From sequence record ON528722: 39,308 nt of DNA; one strand, given 5' to 3'. How positions within the stretch are numbered: the stretch's first letter is position 1; every line of letters begins with the position of its first letter. Under the pieces are notes generated by a model. The model searched no databases. It saw only the letters and a program-made list of their open reading frames with translations, and had not been told where the DNA came from. Position numbers and translations under genes: made by a program. The stretch comes from Shigella phage ESh9. Below, in pieces: positions 23,054 to 37,565 of the stretch.

Positions 23054-23509
23054 TCACCCTCGGTCAGATGTAACCAGTTCGTTCTTCTCCCACCAGCGCT
23101 TCAAGTCGAAGGACGGGCAGGCTTTTGGTGCAACGTCATGGTGAGCACGAAGGATTGAACCCTCATACTTCGCCAGCAGCGTTACCAGCAGACTACGCAG
23201 CGCTTGCATTTGCGCAGGTGTAAAGTTGGCGTCGAACTTGCCTTTATCATCAATCCCACCCACGAGGCATACGCCTACGGAGTTGTGGTTGTAACCTTTC
23301 ACGTGGGAACCTACAGCCAGTTCATCGCGGCCTGCTTCCACAGTGCCATCACGCTTGATGATGAAGTGATATCCTACGTCTAACCAGCCCTGCTCTTTAT
23401 GCCACTGACGAATCTCACGAACGCCAATGTTCTGGCTTGGCTTGGTTGCTGAGCAATGCACAAAGATTGCCTCCGTGGTTGCTCGTGGTTTGAATTGAAC
23501 TTTAGCCAT
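23054..23509 (-). CDS. 3.5: Lysozyme / N-acetylmuramoyl-L-alanine amidase gp3.5
   Basis: 151 aa; MAKVQFKPRATTEAIFVHCSATKP... matches T7 lysozyme. Confidence 0.95.
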   Translation of the reverse strand: MAKVQFKPRATTEAIFVHCSATKPSQNIGVREIRQWHKEQGWLDVGYHFIIKRDGTVEAGRDELAVGSHVKGYNHNSVGVCLVGGIDDKGKFDANFTPAQMQALRSLLVTLLAKYEGSILRAHHDVAPKACPSFDLKRWWEKNELVTSDRG

Positions 23510-23960
23510 TTACTTTTTTCTCCTTTACACGAATTAGTTTCTCCCACGGTACGTCCCGCTTAGGCTCCTTGAGCCACTCGACGGGTATCAGTTTGTCGGC
23601 AAAGAGAATCCCTTTCTTCTCGCAGAACTCGGCGTAAGAAGTTGGAGACCCTTTGTAGATTTTGGTACGACTCGAAGAGAACACCAGACGAATGTCCAGT
23701 TCAGGATACTGCTCACGGATTAGCAAGTGCTTCTTCCGGTCATCAGATTCCCACAGTCCCTTGGTCTCGACAATGATTCCATTGGGTAAAATAAAATCTG
23801 GTCGGTACGTGTGATTACTGGCTGGTATAACATACGGAATCTTCCACATTTCATATTCAGCTTTTACCCCACGAGCCTCCAGTTGTTTGTGGACTTTATC
23901 TTCAAGTCCAGAACGGAAGGAACCTACTTTTCGGATTCCTTTTGCGCCGTAGCCTGCCAT
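23502..23960 (-). CDS. 3: Endonuclease I (Holliday junction resolvase) gp3
   Basis: MAGYGAKGIRKVGSFRSGLEDKV...PDFILPNGIIVETKGLWESDDRKKHLL matches T7 gp3. Confidence 0.95.
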   Translation of the reverse strand: MAGYGAKGIRKVGSFRSGLEDKVHKQLEARGVKAEYEMWKIPYVIPASNHTYRPDFILPNGIIVETKGLWESDDRKKHLLIREQYPELDIRLVFSSSRTKIYKGSPTSYAEFCEKKGILFADKLIPVEWLKEPKRDVPWEKLIRVKEKKVNG

Positions 23961-24394
23961 TGTTTCTTCCTCCAGTTTATAGCCTGCGGCGATACTCCAA
24001 ACTCGTTGGCTAACTCGCGGCTACTCTTGGTGGAGTTCACAATGTAGGCTACCTGTTCATCGGTCAGCTTAGTCTTGTGATTGTGTACACCTCTCGCTAC
24101 TGGTGGCGCGGATAAACGACCACGCTTCTTACAGTCCTGCATGTTGTCTGCCTGAGTCCCAACTTCTAGGTGCTCAGGGTTAACACAGCAAGGGTTATCA
24201 CACTTATGTCTAATGACAAGACCTTCGGAAATTGGCCCATTGAAGACGAAGTATGATACCCTGTGCGCATATGCTTGACGCTGGCGACCTATGGATATTA
24301 AACCATAACCCTTCCCAGCAGTGGCTCGCTGCCACTCCCAGCAACCAGAGGGAGACACCTTAGAGTAAGCCTCCAGTTTCTCCCGCAGGTTCAT
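23924..24394 (-). CDS. HNH-family endonuclease with C-terminal helix-turn-helix
   Basis: AYAHRVSYFVFNGPISEGLVIRHKCDNPCCVNPEHLEVGTQADN is a classic HNH motif; 3' end overlaps the gene 3 start by 37 nt. Confidence 0.8.
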   Translation of the reverse strand: MNLREKLEAYSKVSPSGCWEWQRATAGKGYGLISIGRQRQAYAHRVSYFVFNGPISEGLVIRHKCDNPCCVNPEHLEVGTQADNMQDCKKRGRLSAPPVARGVHNHKTKLTDEQVAYIVNSTKSSRELANEFGVSPQAINWRKKQWQATAQKESEK

Positions 24395-24397
24395 GGT

Positions 24398-25096
24398 TTA
24401 AAAATCCTCGTCCTCATCCGGGGTTTCTTCGTGCTCGTCTTCCTGCCACTCCTGCTCATCGCGGGACTGACGGGATTCACTCGCAGTGTAACCACCATCT
24501 TCGACTTCATCGGCCCACTCATCTTCACCGCCACCACCGAAGGTAGCCAGTTCGACCAGCATCACGGACTCCAGTTGCAGCTTGACGCTTGCGCCCACAG
24601 CGGTGTTCCACTTGTAAGGCACCAGAGAGTATTTCACTTTCAGCTTCGAGCCACCACCGATAATCGGAACTTCCTGAATCTTCTTACCTTTGCTATCGAC
24701 AACGACCAGATTGATGTGTTTGGTCTCTTTTGTCTTCTTATCTTGGAAAGACGCATAGCATTTGAACTTGAAGGTAGTCGTACCGTCACCGTTATCGAAG
24801 AACGGCATGTCGCCCTCGTAAGGTTTCAGCGGCTTCTTACCACGCTGTACCTGCGGCGGGTTAGTTTCGAACTCTTCCACGGCAGCAGCATAAGCCTCTT
24901 CGTGAGTCTTCACGATTTCATCGACCATCGCCTGACAGCGCGGGTCTTTATTGGAAAGAGTCAGGTCTACCTTATAGACACCACGAGGGTTGCCGAAGCC
25001 ACGCTCTTCGTTGCCATAATCCGGCTTACTCAGGTAAGCATAAGGCTCAGCAGTGCCAAGACCAGAGGTGTAGATTTTCTTCTTGAAACCAGCCAT
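24398..25096 (-). CDS. 2.5: Single-stranded DNA-binding protein gp2.5
   Basis: 232 aa, identical length to T7 gp2.5; acidic C-terminal tail ending DEDEDF. Confidence 0.95.
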   Translation of the reverse strand: MAGFKKKIYTSGLGTAEPYAYLSKPDYGNEERGFGNPRGVYKVDLTLSNKDPRCQAMVDEIVKTHEEAYAAAVEEFETNPPQVQRGKKPLKPYEGDMPFFDNGDGTTTFKFKCYASFQDKKTKETKHINLVVVDSKGKKIQEVPIIGGGSKLKVKYSLVPYKWNTAVGASVKLQLESVMLVELATFGGGGEDEWADEVEDGGYTASESRQSRDEQEWQEDEHEETPDEDEDF

Positions 25097-25128: not shown

Positions 25129-25152
25129 GTTCCCTTTAGTGAGGGTAATTAG
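25129..25152 (-). promoter_or_regulatory. T3-type promoter (phi2.5)
   Basis: Reverse complement AATTACCCTCACTAAAGGGAAC. Confidence 0.7.
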
Positions 25153-25385
25153 GCTTTCACTTCTGGACGGATGCGAGTCACTACGAACCCTGCGTCCTCG
25201 TAATGTTCAGCCTGTAGCGTTGCCTCTTCGAGAGACCGGGCGAATACCGGAATCTCAAAGGACTCGGTGTTACCTTCCATTGTCAGAAGGTATTTCTGTT
25301 CTGAGTACATGCAGCGATTTGCACAGGAGTGGTTCTCCATCCCTACGTCCTTCGCGTACTGGCACCCGTTGTTACACTGGCTCAT
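25149..25385 (-). CDS. 2: Host RNA polymerase inhibitor gp2 with Cys-rich N-terminal extension
   Basis: C-terminal [35 protein letters not shown] matches T7 gp2; ATG overlaps the 1.8 stop (ATGA). Confidence 0.8.
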
Positions 25386-25519
25386 TTATTGGCCTCCTTA
25401 AAGCGCCGCTCCCACAGCGTGTACAGTTGTTGGTAAGCGTCAGCAGCCGCCTTGTCACCATCCTCAATAGCTTGGTTCCACTTAGCGGCACACCAATCGC
25501 AGCATTCACGAAGCGTCAT
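25382..25519 (-). CDS. 1.8: gp1.8-like small protein
   Basis: 45 aa from an internal ATG; position as T7 gene 1.8. Confidence 0.5.
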
Positions 25520-26045
25520 AGCACAGCCCCTTATGTTTGTCAAAGAGTTCCTGATAGAATGCAGCTTTATTGAGGTCTTTCTCCATAGTTGCCAGTTCGG
25601 ATTTCTTGCCAGCACGCAGACGGTACTTCAAAATATTCCCTAAGCAGTACCCACGGAACGCCTCGACGGTCATTGACCGGGCGATAACCTCAATGGCTTC
25701 TACGTTGTCGAACAGCATATAGTGGTTCGGATGGGTAACGTCAGACTTCGCCGGGGCTTCCACCTTCGGGGTCTGGACACCAACGGAGCCTCCAGCTTTC
25801 GGTAGCGGTACGAGGCTGTGAGGGTACACCTCGGCAGTCCCATCACCAAACCGCGCCTGCACTCGTCCAGTGTGGGAGTGTCCTGTTACGATACCACTCA
25901 TCCCTTTCAGTCGGCTCATTTGACCAACGTAGCGAACCGCAGAGTTAACCGGGTAGAGTTCATTCAGTTTGTTCGCACGGTCGGCACCACAATCGCAGGC
26001 ACCAAAGGAAAGCAGCGAACGGCAGTGGTCTTTATGAGTAAACAT
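25506..26045 (-). CDS. 1.7: gp1.7 (nucleotide kinase family by position)
   Basis: Start chosen at the ATG preceded by SD AAGGAGGT; size close to T7 gp1.7. Confidence 0.7.
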   Translation of the reverse strand: MFTHKDHCRSLLSFGACDCGADRANKLNELYPVNSAVRYVGQMSRLKGMSGIVTGHSHTGRVQARFGDGTAEVYPHSLVPLPKAGGSVGVQTPKVEAPAKSDVTHPNHYMLFDNVEAIEVIARSMTVEAFRGYCLGNILKYRLRAGKKSELATMEKDLNKAAFYQELFDKHKGLCYDAS

Positions 26046-26302
26046 TACAGTACCTCCTTGACCCATTTAAAGAACAGACGGATGCGAGGCCAGTAAGTGA
26101 CCACGGCTTCCAGATGCGGGCGCTCTTTGTTCATCGCCTTGATGAACTCTCCACGAGTTATCAGTAGGTGAACACGCGGCGACAATGGGACTACCGAACC
26201 AATCAGCGGCAGCTTGGCGTTTCGCTCAGAGGCCACTGCGGTAGAGCGGTCTTCACGGCGAACCGAAAAGATACCATTTGATGTGTTGAAGTGTAAACGC
26301 AT
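26045..26302 (-). CDS. 1.6: gp1.6
   Basis: 85 aa with SD AAGGAGA; position as T7 gene 1.6. Confidence 0.65.
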   Translation of the reverse strand: MRLHFNTSNGIFSVRREDRSTAVASERNAKLPLIGSVVPLSPRVHLLITRGEFIKAMNKERPHLEAVVTYWPRIRLFFKWVKEVL

Positions 26303-26471: not shown

Positions 26472-27503
26472 TTACATTTTCTCTTGAGGGTTGTCCTCGG
26501 TGCCTCGGAACTTCTCGAAGCTAGGGTGACGCAGGGAGCCGTCCGGGGTCGCTTCCATGTAGTTAACTTGGCAGGCCCACCCGTTGTAGTAATCCTCGCC
26601 ATGTTCTTTAACATTCGCGGTAAACTCATCCATCAATGCGCGAGAGATGTTGTTGGCGTCAACTAGACGACCAGTCTCAAGAAGCACAGAGAATCCGATT
26701 ACCTTACCGTCATTCGCAAGACCCGGCGTACCCCAATTGACACCCTGAATGATGCCATCGGCTTCACATTCTGGTTTGAGTTTGAACCAGCCAGACTTTT
26801 TGCCTCGCTTGTAGATGCCCTGCGGGTCTTTCACAATGAGACCCTCGTGACCTTCGGCACGCTTCTCTTCGTACAGTTCAGTCAGCGAATCCATATCGTA
26901 GACCTCGTAGGTCTCAGCGATAAGCCACTCGATTTCCGGGAAGTATTCAACCAGAAGAGAGCGCATGGCTTCCACATGATACGGCATCAGCAGGTTCTGT
27001 ACATCGTAGTCCTCGCCAGACTCCGCAATGTGAATCGGCATGACAGCATACAGGCGAACATTGAGTAGCTTGGGGTCTAACTCAAAGGCTACTTTGGAAC
27101 CTTTCAGCGGCTCAACACCACCACGGTCAAACATGAAGTTGTTCTTCTTGAGCCACTTGGTTCTCAGTAGGCCAGACCCTGTGTTGAAGTCTACGCCCTT
27201 GACCATCAGTTCGCCATCCAGCATGAAGCCATCAGGGAAAATGCAGCGGTCATCGTTCAGTAGTTGCTGCCAGCGCTTATCGAATCCGTTCAGGTGTTCC
27301 AGCGCCGGGATGAACTTCGACACACGGGACAGCCATGCTGCCTCAGCCACGTTGTCAACCACAATATTACCGCGCACGCCATCATACTTAATGTCCGCAA
27401 TCAGGTAGCCGGAGGTCTCCAGCGCTTTCTTAACAGCAGACTCTACGAATGACACAGCTTTGAATGGGTTGGTCTTGAAGATGTTCATACGGTTGTTCCT
27501 CAT
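26472..27503 (-). CDS. 1.3: ATP-dependent DNA ligase gp1.3
   Basis: 343 aa; adenylation motif KYDGVRG; synteny. Confidence 0.95.
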   Translation of the reverse strand: MRNNRMNIFKTNPFKAVSFVESAVKKALETSGYLIADIKYDGVRGNIVVDNVAEAAWLSRVSKFIPALEHLNGFDKRWQQLLNDDRCIFPDGFMLDGELMVKGVDFNTGSGLLRTKWLKKNNFMFDRGGVEPLKGSKVAFELDPKLLNVRLYAVMPIHIAESGEDYDVQNLLMPYHVEAMRSLLVEYFPEIEWLIAETYEVYDMDSLTELYEEKRAEGHEGLIVKDPQGIYKRGKKSGWFKLKPECEADGIIQGVNWGTPGLANDGKVIGFSVLLETGRLVDANNISRALMDEFTANVKEHGEDYYNGWACQVNYMEATPDGSLRHPSFEKFRGTEDNPQEKM

Positions 27504-27562: not shown

Positions 27563-27586
27563 TCTCCTGTTAGTGAGGGTTATTAC
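27563..27586 (-). promoter_or_regulatory. T3-type promoter variant (phi1.3)
   Basis: Reverse complement GTAATAACCCTCACTAACAGGAGA. Confidence 0.6.
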
Positions 27587-27858
27587 TTCCAGTGTTTCAA
27601 ATCGCTGTGAACCTTACGGAGCCATGCAGTCTGCGCGTTGATTTGTACATCGCTGTCGCTATGCTCGAAGGTTCTGGATGCCACCAGATGCCCGGAGCGT
27701 GTGAACACACGGAGAACCTCACCGCATGACCTGCACATCTTCGCTGGGTTTTCGTAGCTGAATGACTCCATCTTCACGGTCACGTCATGGTCTTCCTGTA
27801 GACGCGCTACCGCATCTTTGTAATCGTTCAGGTTGCCGCTATAAATACGTCCCATCAT
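27583..27858 (-). CDS. 1.2: gp1.2 (dGTPase inhibitor family)
   Basis: MMGRIYSGNLNDYKDA...LKHWK matches T7 gp1.2 (MGRLYSGNL...DWK); ATG overlaps the 1.1 stop. Confidence 0.85.
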   Translation of the reverse strand: MMGRIYSGNLNDYKDAVARLQEDHDVTVKMESFSYENPAKMCRSCGEVLRVFTRSGHLVASRTFEHSDSDVQINAQTAWLRKVHSDLKHWK

Positions 27859-27998
27859 CAGTTCCACTCCCGTTTCTGTGAGTTACCGCGCTGTTGCTTG
27901 TGGCGTTTCTTCATGCGGTCACGGCGCTCTTGCCACTGTTCGCCATGCTCGTTGACCACTGAATCGCGCTTGGTAAATTTCTCAAAGTTGGTACGCAT
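27858..27998 (-). CDS. 1.1: gp1.1 small basic protein (46 aa)
   Basis: ATG at 27998; MRTNFEKFTKRDSVVNEHGEQWQERRDRMKKRHKQQRGNSQKREWN resembles T7 gp1.1. Confidence 0.7.
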   Translation of the reverse strand: MRTNFEKFTKRDSVVNEHGEQWQERRDRMKKRHKQQRGNSQKREWN

Positions 27999-28023: not shown

Positions 28024-28066
28024 ATTGAAAGTTAATCACAAAGGCCACCCGAAGATGACCTTGAGT
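28024..28066 (-). promoter_or_regulatory. RNase III-type processing hairpin (R1.1 analogue)
   Basis: gaaagttaatcacaaaggccacc...gaccttgag module, duplicated at 27510-27560. Confidence 0.55.
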
Positions 28067-28070
28067 CTAA

Positions 28071-28095
28071 CTCTCCCGTTAGTGAGGGTTAATTG
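28071..28095 (-). promoter_or_regulatory. T3-type promoter (phi1.1)
   Basis: Reverse complement CAATTAACCCTCACTAACGGGAGAG. Confidence 0.65.
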
Positions 28096-28583
28096 AAGTG
28101 CTTCTCAATGCGACCCTTAACGTCTTCCTTCCTGTACTCGAAGGTCTTGCGGGTCTTATCGCTGTGCCACTGTGTCAGCACGTAGCGGTCACTTAGTTCC
28201 TGCCACTGCAAGGACACCACTTCGAGACCACAAGTCCCAAGTCCCAGCTTGAACTCGGTAGACGTCCAGCCTTTGTGCGGAACGTTAGCCACGAACTTGA
28301 TGGCCTTAATGCTTGACCGCTCGCGTAACTTCTGGTGCAACTCTCGGTTGTCTGCTTGCAGGTTCTTCACAAGTTCATCGCGTCCCTCAAGGTCTCCTTT
28401 GAGACGCTCGATTATCCTTTGGTTGTCACGGTCGCGGCTCCAGCAGTTTGCCAGTTTCTCTTCTGCCTCCTTCCGCCCACTCTCACACTCTTGGTACATC
28501 TTACGCATCAGCTTCTTGTCGTCGTAGTGTTTCCATGCGATGAAGCCCATAGCGATGATGATTAGAATCAGTGCGATAGCCAT
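28089..28583 (-). CDS. Hypothetical 164-aa early protein with N-terminal transmembrane helix and coiled-coil (gene 1.05 position)
   Basis: SD AAGAGGA; N-terminus MAIALILIIIAMGFIAW is hydrophobic; heptad-like charged segment RKEAEEKLAN...LQADNRELHQKLRE; no homolog recognised. Confidence 0.7.
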   Translation of the reverse strand: MAIALILIIIAMGFIAWKHYDDKKLMRKMYQECESGRKEAEEKLANCWSRDRDNQRIIERLKGDLEGRDELVKNLQADNRELHQKLRERSSIKAIKFVANVPHKGWTSTEFKLGLGTCGLEVVSLQWQELSDRYVLTQWHSDKTRKTFEYRKEDVKGRIEKHFN

Positions 28584-28650
28584 AAAGTAATCCTCTTAGT
28601 AATCTTAAATTTAAATCTCTTAGGAAGTCTTTAGGGAGACCTTAAGTAGT

Positions 28651-28672
28651 CTCCCGTTAGTGAGGGTTAATG
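28651..28672 (-). promoter_or_regulatory. T3-type promoter between gene 1 and the 164-aa gene, next to an AT-rich tract
   Basis: Reverse complement CATTAACCCTCACTAACGGGAGA; AT-rich 28584-28630. Confidence 0.65.
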
Positions 28673-28683
28673 CTAAGTGCTTG

Positions 28684-31338
28684 TTACGCAAAGGCAAAGT
28701 CAGACTTGAGAATGTCTCGCAGGTTCAGGTTCCCTTTCTTCGGAAGCGGAGGCATCTTGTCCAGTTGGGTCTCGTGTAGCTGGTCTGCAAACTGGTCATA
28801 GAAGTCTGCCAGCACATCGTTGTTCTCGTAGGTGATAACCATCGTCTCACGTACAGCTTTGAACAGCTTACCAGCGTCTGCTGGGATAGTCCCGAAGCTG
28901 TCATGGATGAGCGCAAAGGACTCAATGCCATACTTCTCGTGAGCATAAACGACTGTCATGCGGAGGTGGCTACCGTCCTGTGAGTGAACAAAGTTAGGCG
29001 CGATGCCAGACTCCTGCTTGTGTGCGTCAATGCCTGAATCCTTGAGGGTATTAATCGTCGGTTGCAGACGGAATTGCCCTAAGAAAATCATATCGAGACG
29101 CTTCTGGAGTGGCTTGCGGTATTCCTGCCATACCGGGAAGCCGTCCGGTGTAGTCCAGTGAACCGCGCAACGGTGACGCAGAATCTCCTTGGTCTTCTTG
29201 TCCTTGACCTCAGCAGCCAGCAGCTTAGCGGCAGACTTGAGCCAGTTCATCGCCTCAACCGCTGCTACTACGGTCACGCTCACCGCGTCCCAAATCAGCT
29301 TAGCCATATAACCAGCCGCTTGGTTAGGTTGGGTGAACATCAAGCCCTTACCGCTGTCAATCGCAGGCTGAATGGTGTCGTCCAGTACCTGTTGACGAAA
29401 GCCGAACTCCTTAGAACCGTAAGCCAGCGTCATGACCGAACGTTTAGTTACGCTACGGGTTACACCATATGCCAGCCACTGTTGTGCCAGAGTTGAGGTT
29501 CCCAGCTTGAGCTTCTCTGAGATTTCCCCGGTGTCCTTGTCGGTCACGGTAATCATCTCGTTAGGTGTGCCGTTGATTGCATCCTGTTTGAGAATCTCGT
29601 TTACTTTCTGCGCAACGATGCCGTAAATGTCCTGTACGGTTTCGCTTGGCAGCAGGTTAACCGCACGACCACCTACCTCATCGCGGAGCATCGCGGAGAA
29701 GTGCTGGATACCAGAGCAAGACCCGTCGAACGCCAGCGGCAGAGAGCAATTGTAGCTCAGACCGTGGTGCGCAACACCTGCATACTCGAAGCAGAACGCG
29801 AGGAAACAGAAAGGTGAATCCTGCTCGGCCCACCAAGTGTTATTGATTGGGTCTTTAGCGCAAGCCAGAATGTCGTCTACGTGCTTCTCAATGAACGCGA
29901 TGCGCTCAGGGAAAGGAACCTTATCGACACCCGCACAGTTCGCACCGTGGATTTTCAGCCAGTAGAACCCTTCCTCACCGATTGGCTTGCCTTTAGCGAG
30001 GGTTAGGAGACCCTTGGTCATGTCGTTGCCTTGAGGGTTGAACATCGGAACAGCGTACACACGACCGCGCCAGTCCATGTTGTAAGGGAACCAGATTGCT
30101 TTCTTGTTTGCAAACTTGTTGGCCTGCTCCAGCATGAACTCTAAGCTGATACGGCGAGACACTCGTGCCTTGTCCAAGCGGTAGATACCAGCGGCGGCTT
30201 TCTTCCACTCCTTGAGTGCTGCCTCGTTGGTGTCAATGTCGTCCGGCTTAGGCGGTAACTCTTGGCGCTCCAGCGATGGAATATCTGCGACCGGGCAATT
30301 CTTCCAGTTAACAATCTCGTTGACAACCGCAAGAACTTTCTTGTTGATTTTCCATGCGGTGTTCTGTGCGATGTTGACCGCCTTGTAGACTTCTGGCATG
30401 TAAACGTCTTCGTAGCGCATCAAGCCCTTCTTAGAGTGAGTGCGAACGAGTGCCAAAGGTCTGCGACCGTTAGCCCAATAGCCGCCCCCGGTGATTGCTA
30501 CCCAAGGTTTCGGCGGTACGACACACGGCTGGAACATCGGAGAGATACCCGCCAGAGCGCCTGCACGCTTCGCTAATACGTCCACGTACTCTTGGGCCAG
30601 TTGCAGTGCCTCATGGTCAGAGCCTGCGTTACCTGCGTTGTGGCGCTGTAATTCCACCAGACCCGTGGATTCAATCAGCATTTCAATCAGGCGAATCCCT
30701 ACGTGCATCGTGGTTTCTTTATCCCAGTTAGACCACGCCTCGCCACCAAGCAGACCTCGACCAATCATATCGGCCTCTACCACCTGCATAAATGCTTTCT
30801 TGTAGACCTGCCCGTGGCGCTTGTTAAGCTGTTCCTCAACGTGCTTCTTGAAGTGCTTCGCTTCGAGGTCACGGATGCGCCCGAAACGTGCCTCATCCTC
30901 AATGGCCTTCCCCAGCATACCAGCAGCGGCCTGAATGGTTGTCATGTTCGTGCTGGTCAGTGACGCAAGGATAACTTTCAGGGTGATAAACGCGGAGGCT
31001 TCCGGCTTGAGTAACTGGAGCGGTGCGTATGCGCTAGGCTTGCGGCCTTTCTTCGATGCGTACTCTTCGAGCCACTCGACGATACGTGTGGTTAACTTAG
31101 GGAGAAGCGTAGCGAGTAACGGCTTAGCGGCTGCGTTGTCTGCAATCTCACCAGCTTTCGCTTGACGCTCAAGCATCTTGAGGAAGCGGCGCTCGCCTAG
31201 CTCATAAGACTCATGTTCTAAAGCTAGTTGTTCACGAGCCAATGCGCTGCCGTAGTGGTCTGCCAGTGTGTTGAACGGGATAGCAGCCAGTTCGATTTCG
31301 GAGAAGTCATTCTTTTCGATGTTTTCGATGATGTTCAT
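28684..31338 (-). CDS. 1: Single-subunit DNA-directed RNA polymerase, T3-type
   Basis: 884 aa; MNIIENIEKNDFSEIELAAIPFNTLADHYG...DFAFA recalled as essentially T3 RNAP; the promoters in the window are T3-type. Confidence 0.97.
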   Translation of the reverse strand: MNIIENIEKNDFSEIELAAIPFNTLADHYGSALAREQLALEHESYELGERRFLKMLERQAKAGEIADNAAAKPLLATLLPKLTTRIVEWLEEYASKKGRKPSAYAPLQLLKPEASAFITLKVILASLTSTNMTTIQAAAGMLGKAIEDEARFGRIRDLEAKHFKKHVEEQLNKRHGQVYKKAFMQVVEADMIGRGLLGGEAWSNWDKETTMHVGIRLIEMLIESTGLVELQRHNAGNAGSDHEALQLAQEYVDVLAKRAGALAGISPMFQPCVVPPKPWVAITGGGYWANGRRPLALVRTHSKKGLMRYEDVYMPEVYKAVNIAQNTAWKINKKVLAVVNEIVNWKNCPVADIPSLERQELPPKPDDIDTNEAALKEWKKAAAGIYRLDKARVSRRISLEFMLEQANKFANKKAIWFPYNMDWRGRVYAVPMFNPQGNDMTKGLLTLAKGKPIGEEGFYWLKIHGANCAGVDKVPFPERIAFIEKHVDDILACAKDPINNTWWAEQDSPFCFLAFCFEYAGVAHHGLSYNCSLPLAFDGSCSGIQHFSAMLRDEVGGRAVNLLPSETVQDIYGIVAQKVNEILKQDAINGTPNEMITVTDKDTGEISEKLKLGTSTLAQQWLAYGVTRSVTKRSVMTLAYGSKEFGFRQQVLDDTIQPAIDSGKGLMFTQPNQAAGYMAKLIWDAVSVTVVAAVEAMNWLKSAAKLLAAEVKDKKTKEILRHRCAVHWTTPDGFPVWQEYRKPLQKRLDMIFLGQFRLQPTINTLKDSGIDAHKQESGIAPNFVHSQDGSHLRMTVVYAHEKYGIESFALIHDSFGTIPADAGKLFKAVRETMVITYENNDVLADFYDQFADQLHETQLDKMPPLPKKGNLNLRDILKSDFAFA

Positions 31339-31408: not shown

Positions 31409-32518
31409 TCAGCCTTGTAGACGCTTGTCAAGGTATGCGTCTATGTGCAACGGTTTGCCCCACTGAATGCGCACCTCGTCGTGCATCATCATTGCCGCAG
31501 CAGCGCGGCGCTCCAGTTCTGCAAAGTTTAGATTGTTGTGGTGCATCCAAGCGTTGCGCCAGTGCTTATCGCCCCACACCATACGCGCCCTAGGCTCATC
31601 CCTGCGATTCTGATTGGCGTCCATGCGCATCCTAGCGAGTACCTTAGCGTTGCGCTTCTCACGCTTAGAGGCCTTTCTGCGCCACTTGATGCGTGCCTTA
31701 CGCGCTACCTGAAAGGTTCCTTTAGGGTCACGTCTAGCCTTGCGTGCCTTGCAGCGCTCGATAGCCTCCTGCGCCCTCAGTGCCTCAATCTCGGCGATTA
31801 GTTCATCCGGGTCACAGTGAAATTCACCCGGCTTTAGCTTGTCGTCTGCGCTGAATGACACCGGGTCTGTGATGATCAAGCGACCCATTTGGTCTTTCAT
31901 CATGTTACCGCTGTGACAATCGAACGATGCGATGCCTAAGAAGAACTTGCGGATATCCTTGCAGGTCTCAATAAAGCCCTCGCTTATCGGGTACTCTTCG
32001 GCGGTGTCGAAGCAATCCTCCTGAATGATTTCCCGTGCGGCCTGAAAGTGGTGACGAATCTTATCACTTTCGCCGTAGCACCAGTCATTGAGTGGCGTCA
32101 GGTAGTCCAGTACCACCGTGTAGCAGCCTGTATGACGCTGAATGTCGTACACCGTAGGGATGCCCTCACGACCCTGATTCATGCGGCAGAAGGCAGCATA
32201 GGCAGCGCCTGAGTCCTCTTTCTTAAAGCCTACCTTGATGACCTTACCCGGTAGCAGTGCGTGCTCATAGGCTGCGCTAAAGTGACCGTTACCTAAGCGT
32301 ACAAAGCCAACATCACGCATACGCTCCGCCAGTGTCTGCCAGTAGTCCATTGATTCCAGACCCCAATTGCCCTTGGCCTGCGTCAGTTCGCCATCTTGGG
32401 TCTCATCGTTCACGATAGCAGCCGCAAGAGCCACCAGCATGGGCTGGCGTTCATCCAATCGGTCAATCGGCAGGTTGCGGATAGCTTCGAGTTCGGCTTG
32501 TGCTTCGGTGAAAGTCAT
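31409..32518 (-). CDS. 0.7: Serine/threonine protein kinase and host shut-off protein gp0.7
   Basis: LGNGHFSAAYEHALLPGKVIKVGFKKEDSGAAYAAFCRM matches T7 gp0.7. Confidence 0.92.
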   Translation of the reverse strand: MTFTEAQAELEAIRNLPIDRLDERQPMLVALAAAIVNDETQDGELTQAKGNWGLESMDYWQTLAERMRDVGFVRLGNGHFSAAYEHALLPGKVIKVGFKKEDSGAAYAAFCRMNQGREGIPTVYDIQRHTGCYTVVLDYLTPLNDWCYGESDKIRHHFQAAREIIQEDCFDTAEEYPISEGFIETCKDIRKFFLGIASFDCHSGNMMKDQMGRLIITDPVSFSADDKLKPGEFHCDPDELIAEIEALRAQEAIERCKARKARRDPKGTFQVARKARIKWRRKASKREKRNAKVLARMRMDANQNRRDEPRARMVWGDKHWRNAWMHHNNLNFAELERRAAAAMMMHDEVRIQWGKPLHIDAYLDKRLQG

Positions 32519-35326: not shown

Positions 35327-37090
35327 CTACCAGTCAATGAACCTGTTGCTATTCACATCGTCATCCTCCCAATAGAGTTCCATACCGTCAACCATAGAGG
35401 TGACTACGTGACCAGCCGAATGGATTGGGTGCTCCATGTGTTCCTCTAAGAACGCCTCAAGCACCTCAGCCTCCACCTTCACGGCGTCCAGTTCCATCGT
35501 AGAGCGTAAGAACTCCACACCCAATGCTAACGCATCAAGTCGGTCATCATGGGCCACAGCGCCCTTCTCACGGGCCATACGGGTCAACTGGTAGAACAGC
35601 GAATAGCGAACGTCATGCTTGCCATCAGCGTCACGGGCAGTCTGGTAGTCCTCACGAATCACCTCATCACGAATCACAAGGCGGTGCGTAGAGAGCACAG
35701 GTTCCAGCGTATCACAAATGCGTAGTTCCTTCATACCACGAGCGCGAATCTCTTCAAGTTGCGCTGCATGGTGTTTCAGGAGCACAGGGCTGAATACCTT
35801 ACCAAACATACCATCCCCGAAGTTACTCTCGAAGACCACTGTCTGAACCTTCCACTGCTTCGCTTTCTTAGCGAGGGACTCAAGGGTCTTATCGGAATAA
35901 CCATCGCGGAACCCGCCAGCTTCCATCAGATAGATGTAGCCGTTCAGGGTGAACAACACTGCGTAACCAGTCTCATCCTTACCGCGACCACTAGGGTCAA
36001 TCACGAGGATGCGTTGCTGGTACTGTCCAGTGTTCTGGCTGCACGAATGATAGCTATGAATATCATCACCCTTAAGTCCCACGTTAGGAAGCTCTTCATT
36101 GCGATTCTGACGGTTCGGAAGCCACTGGTAATGCATTGGGGCTTTCTCGAAGTCCAGACCGCACACGATAGCGTCACGGAGGCGTAAGGGGTACTTCTCG
36201 GCATCACTCAGGTTCGGGTTGAGCATGAACTGCAAAGTGAAGCCAGCCTTACCGTATTCCAACTCACGCTCACGTAGGTCTTCCATATCGAAGCGCACGG
36301 GGTCAGTCGGTTGACCTTGAAGCATCTCGAACCCATCGTTGAACTCTTCGCGGAGCATCGGGGCCAGACGGTCGCCATAGTACAAGTCTTCCTCACGGCT
36401 ACGCGGATAGAGCGCAGGCCAGATTATTGTGGTGTACCCACGGTTATCTTCGAGTTCCTTGTACAAGGTCATTTCGGTTTGAGGCGTGCCAAGGTAGATA
36501 ACGCGAGAAGTAGGCAGCGGTTTCAGAAGCGCAGCAAATTCCTGCACCAGAGTCCACAGCTTCTCACGGGCACCTTGAGTTGCGGAGTTAGACGGAATCT
36601 CAACGTCATCCGCTATGATGATATCAGCACGGCTACCAGTCAACTGACCAGTGATACCCACCGACTTCACAGACGGAGAGTGGTCAGGCTTGGCAGGGCC
36701 AACATCGAAACTAATCACAGAGTCACGCTGACCGGGGCGAGGCTTTAACTCAGCCAAGAAGGGCAGCAGGTCAATGATGTTCTTGATGAAGATGGAGTTA
36801 GCGTCCGCACGTTCTTTGGATGCAGAGACAATCAGTATCTTCAACTGAGGGTCACGCCATAACGTCCACACAACGAACGCACAGGTGATGAATGACTTAC
36901 CGATACCACGGAAAGCCTGTAGGATAAACTTCTTGTTGTCTCCGTTAGCCAGACACCGGGCCATATCAATCTGACACTTAGTCGGTGGCGGGAGAGCCAA
37001 AGCCTTCCACAATACGAACAGGAAGGCCACAAAGTCGCCCTTAAGCTGCGCGATGATTAGCGCATTACGGTTTGCTTGGGTGTCGCTCAT
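35327..37090 (-). CDS. 19: Terminase large subunit gp19
   Basis: 587 aa (T7 gp19 is 586 aa); Walker A-like GIGKS; synteny. Confidence 0.95.
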
Positions 37091-37517
37091 TCTGCATCTC
37101 CTTAATAGTACGCTGGAGCGCTCTTACGTGAGCATCAGCAGCTTGGGTTATTCCGATAATACGCTTAGCATCTGACTCGTGTAGTTCGGCTCGACCATTA
37201 AACTCGCATCTACCGTTATCTTCTGGTAGTCCGGTAAGGGTCTTGATGCGGACTGACAGCCGCTTATTATTACTACGCAGGTCATTAAGCATCCTATCAG
37301 TGCTGCCTTCAATGGCTGCAATCTCTTCTTGGTACTCACGGGATACCCGACTGACCTCTGCCTGAGTTGCTGCGGTTGCTTTTGTTTTCGCAATGTATTC
37401 ATTTTGGATTACCTCCTTCCAGTTTGCTCTCTCATGGGTTGACCCTAAGTGCCAGCCACCCATAAAGAGTGTCCCGGCGAGTACCCAAGGGAGTGCGCTG
37501 CGTAAAAGTTTTAGCAT
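37065..37517 (-). CDS. 18.5: Rz-like i-spanin gp18.5
   Basis: N-terminal [16 protein letters not shown] then coiled-coil; ATG at 37517 with SD GGAGGT; track ORF begins at an upstream TTG. Confidence 0.8.
37148..37402 (-). CDS. 18.7: Rz1-like o-spanin gp18.7, embedded in gene 18.5 in another frame
   Basis: Lipoprotein signal with lipobox ...VVIISGC; ...[19 protein letters not shown] matches T7 gp18.7. Confidence 0.8.
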   Translation of the reverse strand: MNTLRKQKQPQQLRQRSVGYPVSTKKRLQPLKAALIGCLMTCVVIISGCQSASRPLPDYQKITVDASLMVEPNYTSQMLSVLSE

Positions 37518-37565
37518 AACACCTCCCATCAATTTCTAGATTTCACGTAGATGCACCAAATAACA

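What the first reader, a model, noticed from the sequence alone, without database searches (positions are those of the whole stretch)
28089..28583. Membrane-anchored coiled-coil early protein between RNA polymerase and gene 1.1
The 164-aa ORF has a good SD, a hydrophobic N-terminal helix (MAIALILIIIAMGFIAW), a charged coiled-coil segment and a C-terminal globular part with two Cys. It sits in the early slot where T7-group phages carry variable host-takeover or exclusion genes, between its own promoter and the R1.1/phi1.1 module. I do not recognise a homolog.
Basis: inference. Interest (0 to 1): 0.5.

Follow-up and report, generated by a model that had tools for sequence, protein, structure and literature searches.

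The report
Membrane-tethered long form of gene 1.05
The ORF is a real early gene of a T3-like phage, but not an orphan: it is the long, membrane-anchored form of the already catalogued gene 1.05 family, found in hundreds of T7-like phages, and nobody has yet shown what it does.

Summary
The 164-aa ORF at 28089-28583 (minus strand) is real. It has a Shine-Dalgarno site, a 17-residue N-terminal hydrophobic helix, a roughly 75-residue heptad-periodic helix and a C-terminal beta domain. It lies between promoter phi1.05 and the phi1.1/R1.1 module of a Teetrevirus (T3-like) genome. One detail was wrong: the C-terminal domain has one Cys (C118), not two.

Residues 92-162 match Pfam PF25755 (Phage_T3_1_05, E 1e-27). 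The whole protein matches PHROG 6440, and 99%-identical genes sit in GenBank phages. At least 579 phage records carry the domain, almost always next to the phage RNA polymerase gene. T3 and phiYeO3-12 carry a 90-aa form with no transmembrane helix; KP32-type "fusion proteins" share the long architecture.

Function is unknown in the literature. My best guess is a membrane-tethered binder of a conserved cytoplasmic target. The gene is already known and of modest interest.

The parts
28089..28583 (-). Gene 1.05, long allele: 164 aa plus stop codon
   Evidence: ORF listing and translation. Pfam PF25755 and PHROG 6440. Annotated as a CDS in 99%-identical phage records.
28533..28583 (-). Residues 1-17: N-terminal transmembrane helix with no K/R before it
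   Evidence: Kyte-Doolittle mean 2.77. 47 of 53 long-form relatives have no K/R before the helix and a mean of 3.5 K/R in the 15 residues after it.
28311..28532 (-). Residues 18-91: charged heptad-periodic helix, the coiled-coil stalk (about 11 nm if fully extended)
   Evidence: 3.5-residue periodicity at p about 0.001, with a single register. AlphaFold helix 2-94. Fast-evolving and exchanged between alleles.
28092..28310 (-). Residues 92-164: conserved gp1.05 small beta-barrel domain with the FKLGLG(T/P)CG hairpin
   Evidence: PF25755 E 1e-27. AlphaFold pLDDT 93.9 with six strands. Invariant residues F, L, G, G, C, G, Q, F, Y, R. dN/dS 0.14-0.17.
28591..28598 (-). Shine-Dalgarno sequence TAAGAGGA, 7 nt before the ATG
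   Evidence: Sequence read directly.
28650..28671 (-). Phage RNA polymerase promoter phi1.05 (ATTAACCCTCACTAACGGGAGA)
   Evidence: Pattern search: 16 sites in the window against 0 expected. The same site is annotated in phiYeO3-12 and phiSG-JL2.
28584..28649 (-). AT-rich leader (about 30% GC) between phi1.05 and the ATG. The equivalent stretch is annotated as the primary replication origin in relatives.
   Evidence: Composition profile. rep_origin features in phiYeO3-12 and phiSG-JL2.
28072..28093 (-). Promoter phi1.1, an identical 22-nt copy that overlaps the stop codon of gene 1.05
   Evidence: plus the annotation in relatives.
28027..28075 (-). R1.1 RNase III-type hairpin
   Evidence: RNA fold dG -21.2 kcal/mol, z -4.8, and 0 of 200 shuffles fold as well. 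Annotated in relatives.
27858..27998 (-). Gene 1.1, the downstream neighbour
   Evidence: Pfam Phage_1_1, E 8e-12.
28684..31338 (-). Gene 1, T3-type RNA polymerase, the upstream neighbour
   Evidence: ORF of 884 aa. 99.5% identical to annotated RNA polymerases.

Best explanation
The ORF is the long allele of gene 1.05 of the T3 group.

Shown here or strongly supported:
- It is a real gene under purifying selection. Transcription would come from promoter phi1.05. By analogy with T3 and T7, host polymerase read-through of the early region, which ends at the terminator after gene 1.3, would also cover it.
- The product is a single-pass inner-membrane protein. Its N-terminal helix is inserted N-out/C-in.
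- A coiled-coil stalk of about 75 residues follows. A 73-residue phage-specific small beta-barrel (Pfam PF25755) then sits in the cytoplasm.

Inferred:
- The stalk dimerises the protein and holds two barrels about 10 nm below the membrane.
- The barrel is the working part. It uses its invariant FKLGLG(P/T)CG hairpin plus conserved Q, Y, R and K residues to bind a partner that is conserved across Proteobacteria or across T7-like phages.
- The long form holds or sequesters that partner at the membrane. The T3 short form and the domain-only forms would bind the same partner free in the cytosol.

My most likely reading is host takeover: inhibition or relocation of a conserved cytoplasmic host protein. 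This matches most small class I/II genes of T7-group phages whose functions are known. The identity of the partner is unknown.
For: - Family membership: PF25755 at 96 bits, PHROG 6440 at E 3e-66.
- Real gene: Shine-Dalgarno site, own promoter, and dN/dS 0.14-0.17 in the domain.
- Topology: 47 of 53 TM-bearing relatives have no K/R before the helix and a mean of 3.5 K/R in the next 15 residues. The phage's own Rz-like spanin, which is N-in, has K and R before its helix and serves as an internal contrast. 80 of 185 family members are the domain alone with no hydrophobic leader, so the domain works in the cytoplasm.
- Coiled coil: periodicity at p about 0.001 here and p<0.05 in 48 of 62 relatives; proline makes up 0.3% of stalk residues; AlphaFold gives a single helix over residues 2-94.
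- The domain is the conserved part: ten invariant residues across 63 diverse members, a confident fold, and only PF25755 found in every member.
- The membrane tether is a stable trait of one subfamily: 54 of 62 TM+coiled-coil forms fall in one cluster by domain similarity, and KP32-type proteins share the layout.
- Accessory status: T7 has no gene between phi1.1A and phi1.1B. About 579 of about 2700 records with a T7-type polymerase carry the domain.
- Prior from established knowledge of T7 (my own knowledge): gp0.4, 0.6, 0.7, 1.2, 2, 4.5, 5.5, 5.7 and 5.9 all act on host proteins.
Against: - No partner has been identified and no experiment bears on the function. Papers list the gene only in annotation tables, and one states that no role has been published.
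- The topology rests on the positive-inside rule and on domain-only relatives, not on a dedicated predictor or a fusion assay.
- Very strong conservation of the domain across phages of alpha-, beta- and gamma-proteobacteria is unusual for an arms-race protein. It fits a nucleic-acid, small-molecule or phage-encoded partner equally well.
- The gene is nearly always next to the phage RNA polymerase gene (60 of 63 loci), which may point to phage rather than host machinery.
Confidence: 0.4

Rival explanations
1. Membrane organiser of phage DNA replication or transcription, analogous to phi29 p16.7. On this reading the cytoplasmic barrel binds single-stranded DNA, RNA or a component of the phage's own polymerase or replisome. 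That would anchor replicating or entering phage DNA to the inner membrane.
For: - The layout is the same as p16.7: N-terminal membrane helix, coiled coil, C-terminal dimeric binding domain. The p16.7 layout is from my own knowledge. Its role in membrane-associated replication through ssDNA and the terminal protein is given in PMC4974454 and PMC11476376.
- The gene begins next to the stretch annotated as the primary replication origin.
- It neighbours the phage RNA polymerase gene in 60 of 63 loci, on either side depending on lineage. In a Sphingobium T7-like element it lies between the DNA polymerase and the 5'-3' exonuclease.
- The nearest folds are Sm/Hfq and WYL barrels, which bind RNA or ssDNA.
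- The domain is basic in most TM forms and has pI 9.4 here.
- Conservation across distant hosts fits a universal ligand.
Against: - Domain pI ranges from 4.6 to 10.4 across the family, which is not what a general nucleic-acid binder shows.
- Teetreviruses with 99%-identical polymerases carry domain alleles only 31-92% identical, so there is no co-variation with the polymerase.
- T7 replicates well without the gene.
- Many members have no membrane tether.
Confidence: 0.2
2. Anti-defence protein that binds a small signalling nucleotide or a defence effector. The glycine-rich GxGxxG-type hairpin would clamp a phosphate-bearing ligand, or the barrel would block a membrane-associated abortive-infection effector.
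For: - The invariant hairpin G-L-G-P-C-G, with conserved K, R, Y and Q residues, is the kind of site that binds phosphates or nucleotides (inference).
- The slot is variable and exchanged between phages, as anti-defence loci are.
- A 2025 paper lists the homologous 'fusion protein' among the genes that differ between two Klebsiella phages with different plating efficiency.
Against: - No match to PADLOC models. That library holds defence systems, so this is only weak evidence against.
- The domain is far more conserved than known anti-defence proteins.
- A membrane tether has no obvious use for a sponge.
- There is no oligomeric pocket evidence.
Confidence: 0.12
3. Periplasm-facing protein (N-in/C-out) that acts in superinfection exclusion or lysis, like an Rz-type i-spanin.
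For: A membrane helix followed by a coiled coil gives weak PHROG hits to Rz-like spanins, E 0.065-0.16. Early membrane proteins of other phages do mediate exclusion (my own knowledge).
Against: - Those hits are not significant.
- The charge distribution is the reverse of N-in proteins.
- Domain-only relatives have no export signal.
- The window already has a complete lysis cassette elsewhere: holin, Rz-like and embedded Rz1-like genes.
- No lipoprotein partner lies next to gene 1.05.
Confidence: 0.05

Closest known systems
Gene 1.05 protein of phage T3 and phiYeO3-12 (Pfam PF25755, Phage_T3_1_05)
   Same: Same C-terminal domain, including the FKLGLGPCG hairpin and the GRIE end. Same slot between gene 1 and gene 1.1, and the same flanking promoters phi1.05 and phi1.1.
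   Different: The T3 and phiYeO3-12 protein is 90 aa with a short polar N-terminus, no membrane helix and no coiled coil. It is only 31% identical over the domain. No function is known for either form.
gp1.05 of Salmonella phage phiSG-JL2 and the 'fusion protein' of Klebsiella phage KP32 and other Przondovirus phages (PHROG 6440 and relatives)
   Same: Same three-part layout of membrane helix, coiled coil and PF25755 domain, placed immediately after the RNA polymerase gene.
   Different: 45-47% identity overall, and the N-terminal two-thirds are essentially unalignable. These proteins are also uncharacterised.
phi29 p16.7, the membrane organiser of phage DNA replication
   Same: An early phage protein with an N-terminal membrane anchor, a coiled coil and a C-terminal binding domain facing the cytoplasm. 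The architecture is from my own knowledge and the function from PMC4974454.
   Different: There is no sequence relationship. The p16.7 C-domain is alpha-helical (my own knowledge, from PDB 1zae and 2bnk, which are listed), whereas this one is all-beta. The host is Gram-positive and replication is protein-primed. The resemblance is analogy only.
Small beta-barrel folds: Sm/Hfq, WYL domains (DriD, PafBC, BrxR, CapW), SspB, SH3
   Same: About 50 of 77 residues superpose at 2.2-3 Angstrom rmsd.
Rz-type i-spanins
   Same: An N-terminal membrane helix followed by a coiled coil.
   Different: Predicted topology is the opposite. There is no o-spanin partner, the gene is not in the lysis cassette, and the phage has its own Rz/Rz1 pair.

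Membership tests
Pfam PF25755 (Phage_T3_1_05), gene 1.05 family | Match to the family HMM above the gathering score | tested here: met
   96.4 bits against a cut-off of 27, E 9.7e-28, residues 92-162 covering model positions 2-72 of 73.
Pfam PF25755 (Phage_T3_1_05), gene 1.05 family | Conserved FKLGLGPCG hairpin and the other invariant residues (Q, F, Y, R) | tested here: met
   The window has FKLGLGTCG, with P replaced by T at residue 117. All ten invariant columns of the 63-sequence alignment are present.
Pfam PF25755 (Phage_T3_1_05), gene 1.05 family | Encoded by a T7-like phage, next to the single-subunit RNA polymerase gene | tested here: met
   The window gene starts 101 nt after the end of gene 1. 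60 of 63 related loci have the domain gene adjacent to the polymerase gene on the same strand.
Pfam PF25755 (Phage_T3_1_05), gene 1.05 family | Size and layout of the T3 prototype (about 90 aa, soluble) | tested here: not met
   The window protein is 164 aa with a membrane helix and a coiled coil. This layout is one of several found in the family: 62 of 185 members have it.
PHROG 6440 (long gp1.05-type proteins) | Full-length profile match | tested here: met
   E 3.1e-66, residues 1-164 against profile positions 5-184 of 186. The family is annotated as function unknown.
Rz-type i-spanin | Significant match to spanin profiles | tested here: not met
   PHROG 4297 and 739 give E 0.065 and 0.16. 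There is no Pfam Phage_lysis hit.
Rz-type i-spanin | N-in/C-out topology, an o-spanin partner, and a position in the lysis cassette | tested here: not met
   There are no basic residues before the helix and no adjacent lipoprotein ORF. The phage's Rz/Rz1 pair is at 37065-37532 and 37148-37402.
phi29 p16.7-like replication organisers | Membrane helix, coiled coil and cytoplasmic C-terminal domain | tested here: met
   This is architecture only.
phi29 p16.7-like replication organisers | Helical, homeodomain-like C-domain homologous to p16.7C | tested here: not met
   The C-domain is six beta strands. No PDB sequence match was found, even with a family profile at E up to 10.
phi29 p16.7-like replication organisers | Binds ssDNA or dsDNA and a replication protein; needed for membrane-associated replication | not testable with these tools
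   This needs gel-shift, cross-linking and infection experiments.
Sm/Hfq and WYL small beta-barrels | Fold match | tested here: inconclusive
Sm/Hfq and WYL small beta-barrels | Sequence profile match to LSM, Hfq or WYL | tested here: not met
   Only PF25755 is found in all 63 members scanned.

The most novel reading that the evidence does not exclude
The long gp1.05 proteins could be a previously unrecognised class of membrane tethers in T7-group phages. On this reading, a coiled-coil dimer hangs a phage-specific nucleic-acid- or polymerase-binding barrel under the inner membrane. That would anchor entering or replicating phage DNA, or the phage RNA polymerase, at the membrane. It would be a Gram-negative counterpart of phi29 p16.7, and would give a molecular handle on the old observation of membrane-associated T7 DNA.
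Probability: 0.15. Interest if true: 0.65.

Novelty: already known. Interest (0 to 1): 0.3.

Why it matters
The gene itself is not new. It is catalogued in Pfam and PHROGs and annotated in many GenBank phages.

What remains open is its function. The domain occurs in at least a fifth of sequenced phages with a T7-type RNA polymerase, including the Klebsiella, Salmonella, Yersinia and E. coli phages used in therapy and engineering work. It is one of the most conserved accessory domains of that group, and nobody has reported what it does.

The analysis here narrows the question to a testable form. The protein is a cytoplasm-facing, membrane-tethered, probably dimeric binder with a ten-residue invariant signature. 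Natural alleles with and without the tether could be swapped to test it. For this window, the finding is an ordinary member of a known family.

Tried and rejected
- **Sequence search of solved structures.** Neither the protein nor a 63-sequence family profile gave a meaningful hit.
- **Fold search with the full-length model.** It was dominated by the long helix and a poorly modelled domain, and gave nothing at E 0.001 or better.
- **Other libraries.** PADLOC and NCBIfam gave nothing significant.
- **Fused known domains.** Longer family members carry only PF25755 plus coiled-coil noise.
- **Literature.** 'gp1.05' and 'gene 1.05' occur only in annotation tables. 'PF25755' occurs in no paper. The phiYeO3-12 genome and non-essential-gene papers, and the p16.7 EMBO paper, are not held.
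- **Hidden membrane helix in the T3 short form.** Its N-terminus (MINIKTFFKNIFKLNRL) has a hydrophobic moment of up to 0.62, similar to the FtsA membrane helix. Shuffles reach the tested 16-mer's value 13% of the time, so I dropped the idea.
- **Spanin reading.** Rejected on topology, context and the separate Rz/Rz1 pair.
- **Antisense ORFs on the plus strand** (28249-28527 and 28335-28565). There is no support for them. All 16 promoters, and every gene I identified, lie on the minus strand.
- **Internal soluble product.** I considered a start at GTG (V72), suggested by a 93-aa database entry from a 1-kb contig (P0004). No suitably spaced ribosome-binding site precedes it.

Full report
**What the window is.** The window is a whole T3-like (Teetrevirus) phage genome, circularly permuted, with every gene I identified on the minus strand. 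It holds sixteen T3-type promoters, all on the minus strand, against none expected by chance. The stretch around the finding is 99.1-99.7% identical to Salmonella phage vB_SAg-RPN15, Klebsiella phage vB8388, Citrobacter phage SH2 and Serratia phage SM9-3Y. The local gene order, reading along the minus strand from 32518 down to 23924, is as follows:

| Coordinates | Gene |
|---|---|
| 31409-32518 | 369-aa ORF in the gene 0.7 (kinase) position; no Pfam match |
| 28684-31338 | gene 1, RNA polymerase |
| 28089-28583 | the ORF in question |
| 27858-27998 | gene 1.1 |
| 27583-27867 | gene 1.2 |
| 26472-27503 | DNA ligase |
| 26045-26302 | 1.6-type (Pfam BC10) |
| 25506-26066 | 1.7-type (Pfam DUF3310) |
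| 25149-25385 | gene 2, RNA polymerase inhibitor |
| 24398-25096 | gene 2.5, single-stranded DNA-binding protein |
| 23924-24394 | HNH endonuclease |

- The ORF at 28089-28583 (minus strand) encodes 164 aa, about 19.5 kDa, with pI 9.2.
- TAAGAGGA lies 7 nt before the ATG.
- Residues 1-17 (MAIALILIIIAMGFIAW) are strongly hydrophobic, with a Kyte-Doolittle mean of 2.77.
- Residues 18-92 are rich in E, K, R and L. They show a 3.5-residue hydrophobic periodicity that about 0.1% of 2000 shuffles reach, with one heptad register from end to end.
- AlphaFold models residues 2-94 as one helix with pLDDT about 90.
- The rest is a beta domain.
- The upstream promoter phi1.05 and the downstream promoter phi1.1 are a perfect 22-nt direct repeat, ATTAACCCTCACTAACGGGAGA, 578 bp apart. 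The second copy overlaps the stop codon.
- The R1.1 hairpin follows, with dG -21.2 kcal/mol and z -4.8.
- The 66-nt leader between phi1.05 and the ATG is about 30% GC. It corresponds to the stretch annotated as the replication origin in phiYeO3-12 and phiSG-JL2.
- One detail is wrong: the three cysteines are C33, C47 and C118, so the C-terminal domain has one Cys, not two.

**It has homologs, and it has a name.**
- Residues 92-162 match Pfam PF25755, 'Enterobacteria phage T3 gene 1.05 protein', at 96 bits against a gathering score of 27.
- The whole protein matches PHROG 6440 at E 3e-66, a family of unknown function.
- In phiYeO3-12 the same slot, between the same two promoters, holds the 90-aa gene 1.05. 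In phiSG-JL2 it holds a 169-aa gp1.05 with the same three-part layout as the window protein.
- Citrobacter phage SH1 and the KP32-type Klebsiella phages label the homolog 'fusion protein'. The KP32-type protein is 186 aa and also consists of a membrane helix, a coiled coil and the domain.
- T7 itself has no gene here. Its promoters phi1.1A and phi1.1B lie 75 bp apart.

**Size and shape of the family.**
- A translated search finds the domain in 579 phage records. About 2700 records encode a T7-type polymerase. The 579 is a lower bound.
- An exhaustive profile search of 1.84 billion representative proteins finds only 174 clusters at E 0.001 or better. The family is small and essentially confined to T7-like phages and prophages.
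- Among 185 members with a well-covered domain, 80 are the domain alone. 62 have a membrane helix plus a coiled coil. 17 have a coiled coil without a helix. 13 have a helix with a short linker or none. 13 were flagged as carrying a large insertion or a split domain match. Some of these are genuine inserts inside the barrel; others, such as P0003 and P0006, are domain-boundary artefacts.
- The forms with helix and coiled coil group together by domain similarity: 54 of 62 fall in one cluster. In these forms the domain starts at a median of residue 92.
- No member carries any other known domain.

**Evolution.**
- The domain is under purifying selection: dN/dS 0.17 against the Koku allele and 0.14 against phiSG-JL2.
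- The helix and stalk are far more diverged. Against the Koku allele the domain has dS 0.33 and 92% amino-acid identity, while the N-terminal part has dS above 2. The gene is therefore a mosaic with a junction near residue 85-90.
- A 2025 paper on Przondovirus phages notes the same N-terminal hypervariability. It also states that no role has been published for these proteins.
- Teetreviruses whose polymerases are 99% identical carry 1.05 alleles whose domains are only 31-92% identical. The cassette therefore moves independently of its neighbours, probably through the repeated promoters.

**Topology.**
- In 47 of 53 relatives with a helix, no lysine or arginine precedes it. The next 15 residues hold 3.5 on average. 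By the positive-inside rule the N-terminus faces out and the rest stays in the cytoplasm.
- The phage's own Rz-type spanin, a known N-in protein, shows the opposite pattern, [11 protein letters not shown]....
- The 80 domain-only relatives have no export signal. The domain therefore works in the cytoplasm.
- This makes a periplasmic exclusion or lysis role unlikely. The window also already has a holin and an Rz/Rz1 pair.

**The domain.**
- With a 63-sequence alignment AlphaFold gives pLDDT 93.9 and six beta strands.
- The invariant residues are F, L, G, G, C and G of the hairpin between strands 2 and 3 (FKLGLGPCG; T replaces P in the window), Q in strand 4, F and Y in strand 5, and R in strand 6.
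- The viral structure library returns only family members, all uncharacterised.
- Domain pI ranges from 4.6 to 10.4 across the family and is 9.4 here.

**Neighbourhood.**
- In 60 of 63 loci the domain gene is the immediate neighbour of the phage RNA polymerase gene on the same strand. It is downstream in Studiervirinae (54 loci, many of them redundant) and upstream in Pseudomonas-type phages (6 loci).
- In a Sphingobium T7-like element it lies between the DNA polymerase and the 5'-3' exonuclease.

**What it most likely does.** The architecture is well supported. The protein is a single-pass, N-out/C-in membrane protein whose coiled-coil stalk holds a conserved binding barrel in the cytoplasm. 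The stalk is probably dimeric and would be about 11 nm long if extended. What the barrel binds is inferred only.
- I rank a conserved host protein first, at about 0.4. That is what most small early and middle T7-group proteins with known functions act on (my own knowledge of gp0.4, 0.6, 0.7, 1.2, 2, 4.5, 5.5, 5.7 and 5.9).
- The main rival, at about 0.2, is a phi29 p16.7-like membrane organiser of replication or transcription. The shared layout, the position at the origin and next to the polymerase, the Sm/WYL-like fold and the conservation across distant hosts all support it. The variable charge of the domain and the lack of co-variation with the polymerase count against it.
- An anti-defence ligand binder (about 0.12) and a periplasmic role (about 0.05) follow.

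**Verdict.** The feature is real and correctly described apart from the cysteine count. It is a known, named and widespread gene of unknown function rather than an orphan. For the scan it is an ordinary member of an already catalogued family. The open question is what the family does.

Noticed in passing
window 28650-28671 and 28072-28093 (minus strand): Gene 1.05 is bracketed by a perfect 22-nt direct repeat, the promoters phi1.05 and phi1.1. T7 has the equivalent two promoters 75 bp apart with no gene between them. The gene therefore looks like a cassette that can be gained, lost or exchanged by recombination between promoters.
   Followed up: partly
window 28089-28583 compared with L065 476-973 (Klebsiella phage vB_Kpn_001_Koku): The gene is an intragenic mosaic. 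The C-domain is 92% identical (dS 0.33), while the membrane helix and coiled coil are saturated (dS above 2). This puts a recombination junction near residue 85-90.
   Followed up: partly
proteins P0167, P0091 and P0040/P0172 (relatives, not in the window): Three unusual family variants turned up. One keeps the helix and stalk but has lost the invariant FKLGLGPCG hairpin. One joins the membrane helix directly to the domain with no stalk. One type carries a roughly 90-residue insertion inside the barrel, between strands 4 and 5.
   Followed up: no
window 23924-24394 (minus strand): A 156-aa HNH homing-type endonuclease (Pfam HNH_3) sits just downstream of the single-stranded DNA-binding protein gene 2.5. 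Its 3' end overlaps the start of the next ORF (23502-23960).
   Followed up: no
window 25149-25385 (minus strand): The gene 2-type RNA polymerase inhibitor ORF extends 29 codons upstream of the Pfam-matched part. The extension holds four cysteines. The true start codon may be internal.
   Followed up: no
window 31409-32518 (minus strand): The 369-aa ORF in the gene 0.7 (protein kinase) position has no Pfam match at E 0.001 or better.
   Followed up: no
L006-L008 and L061-L063 (Pseudomonas-type T7-like elements): These relatives carry a 501-aa phage integrase a few genes upstream of the 1.05-like gene and the RNA polymerase. In one of them the integrase is flanked by genes of bacterial type (BacA, YjbR). 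They are therefore probably integrated T7-like prophages.
   Followed up: no
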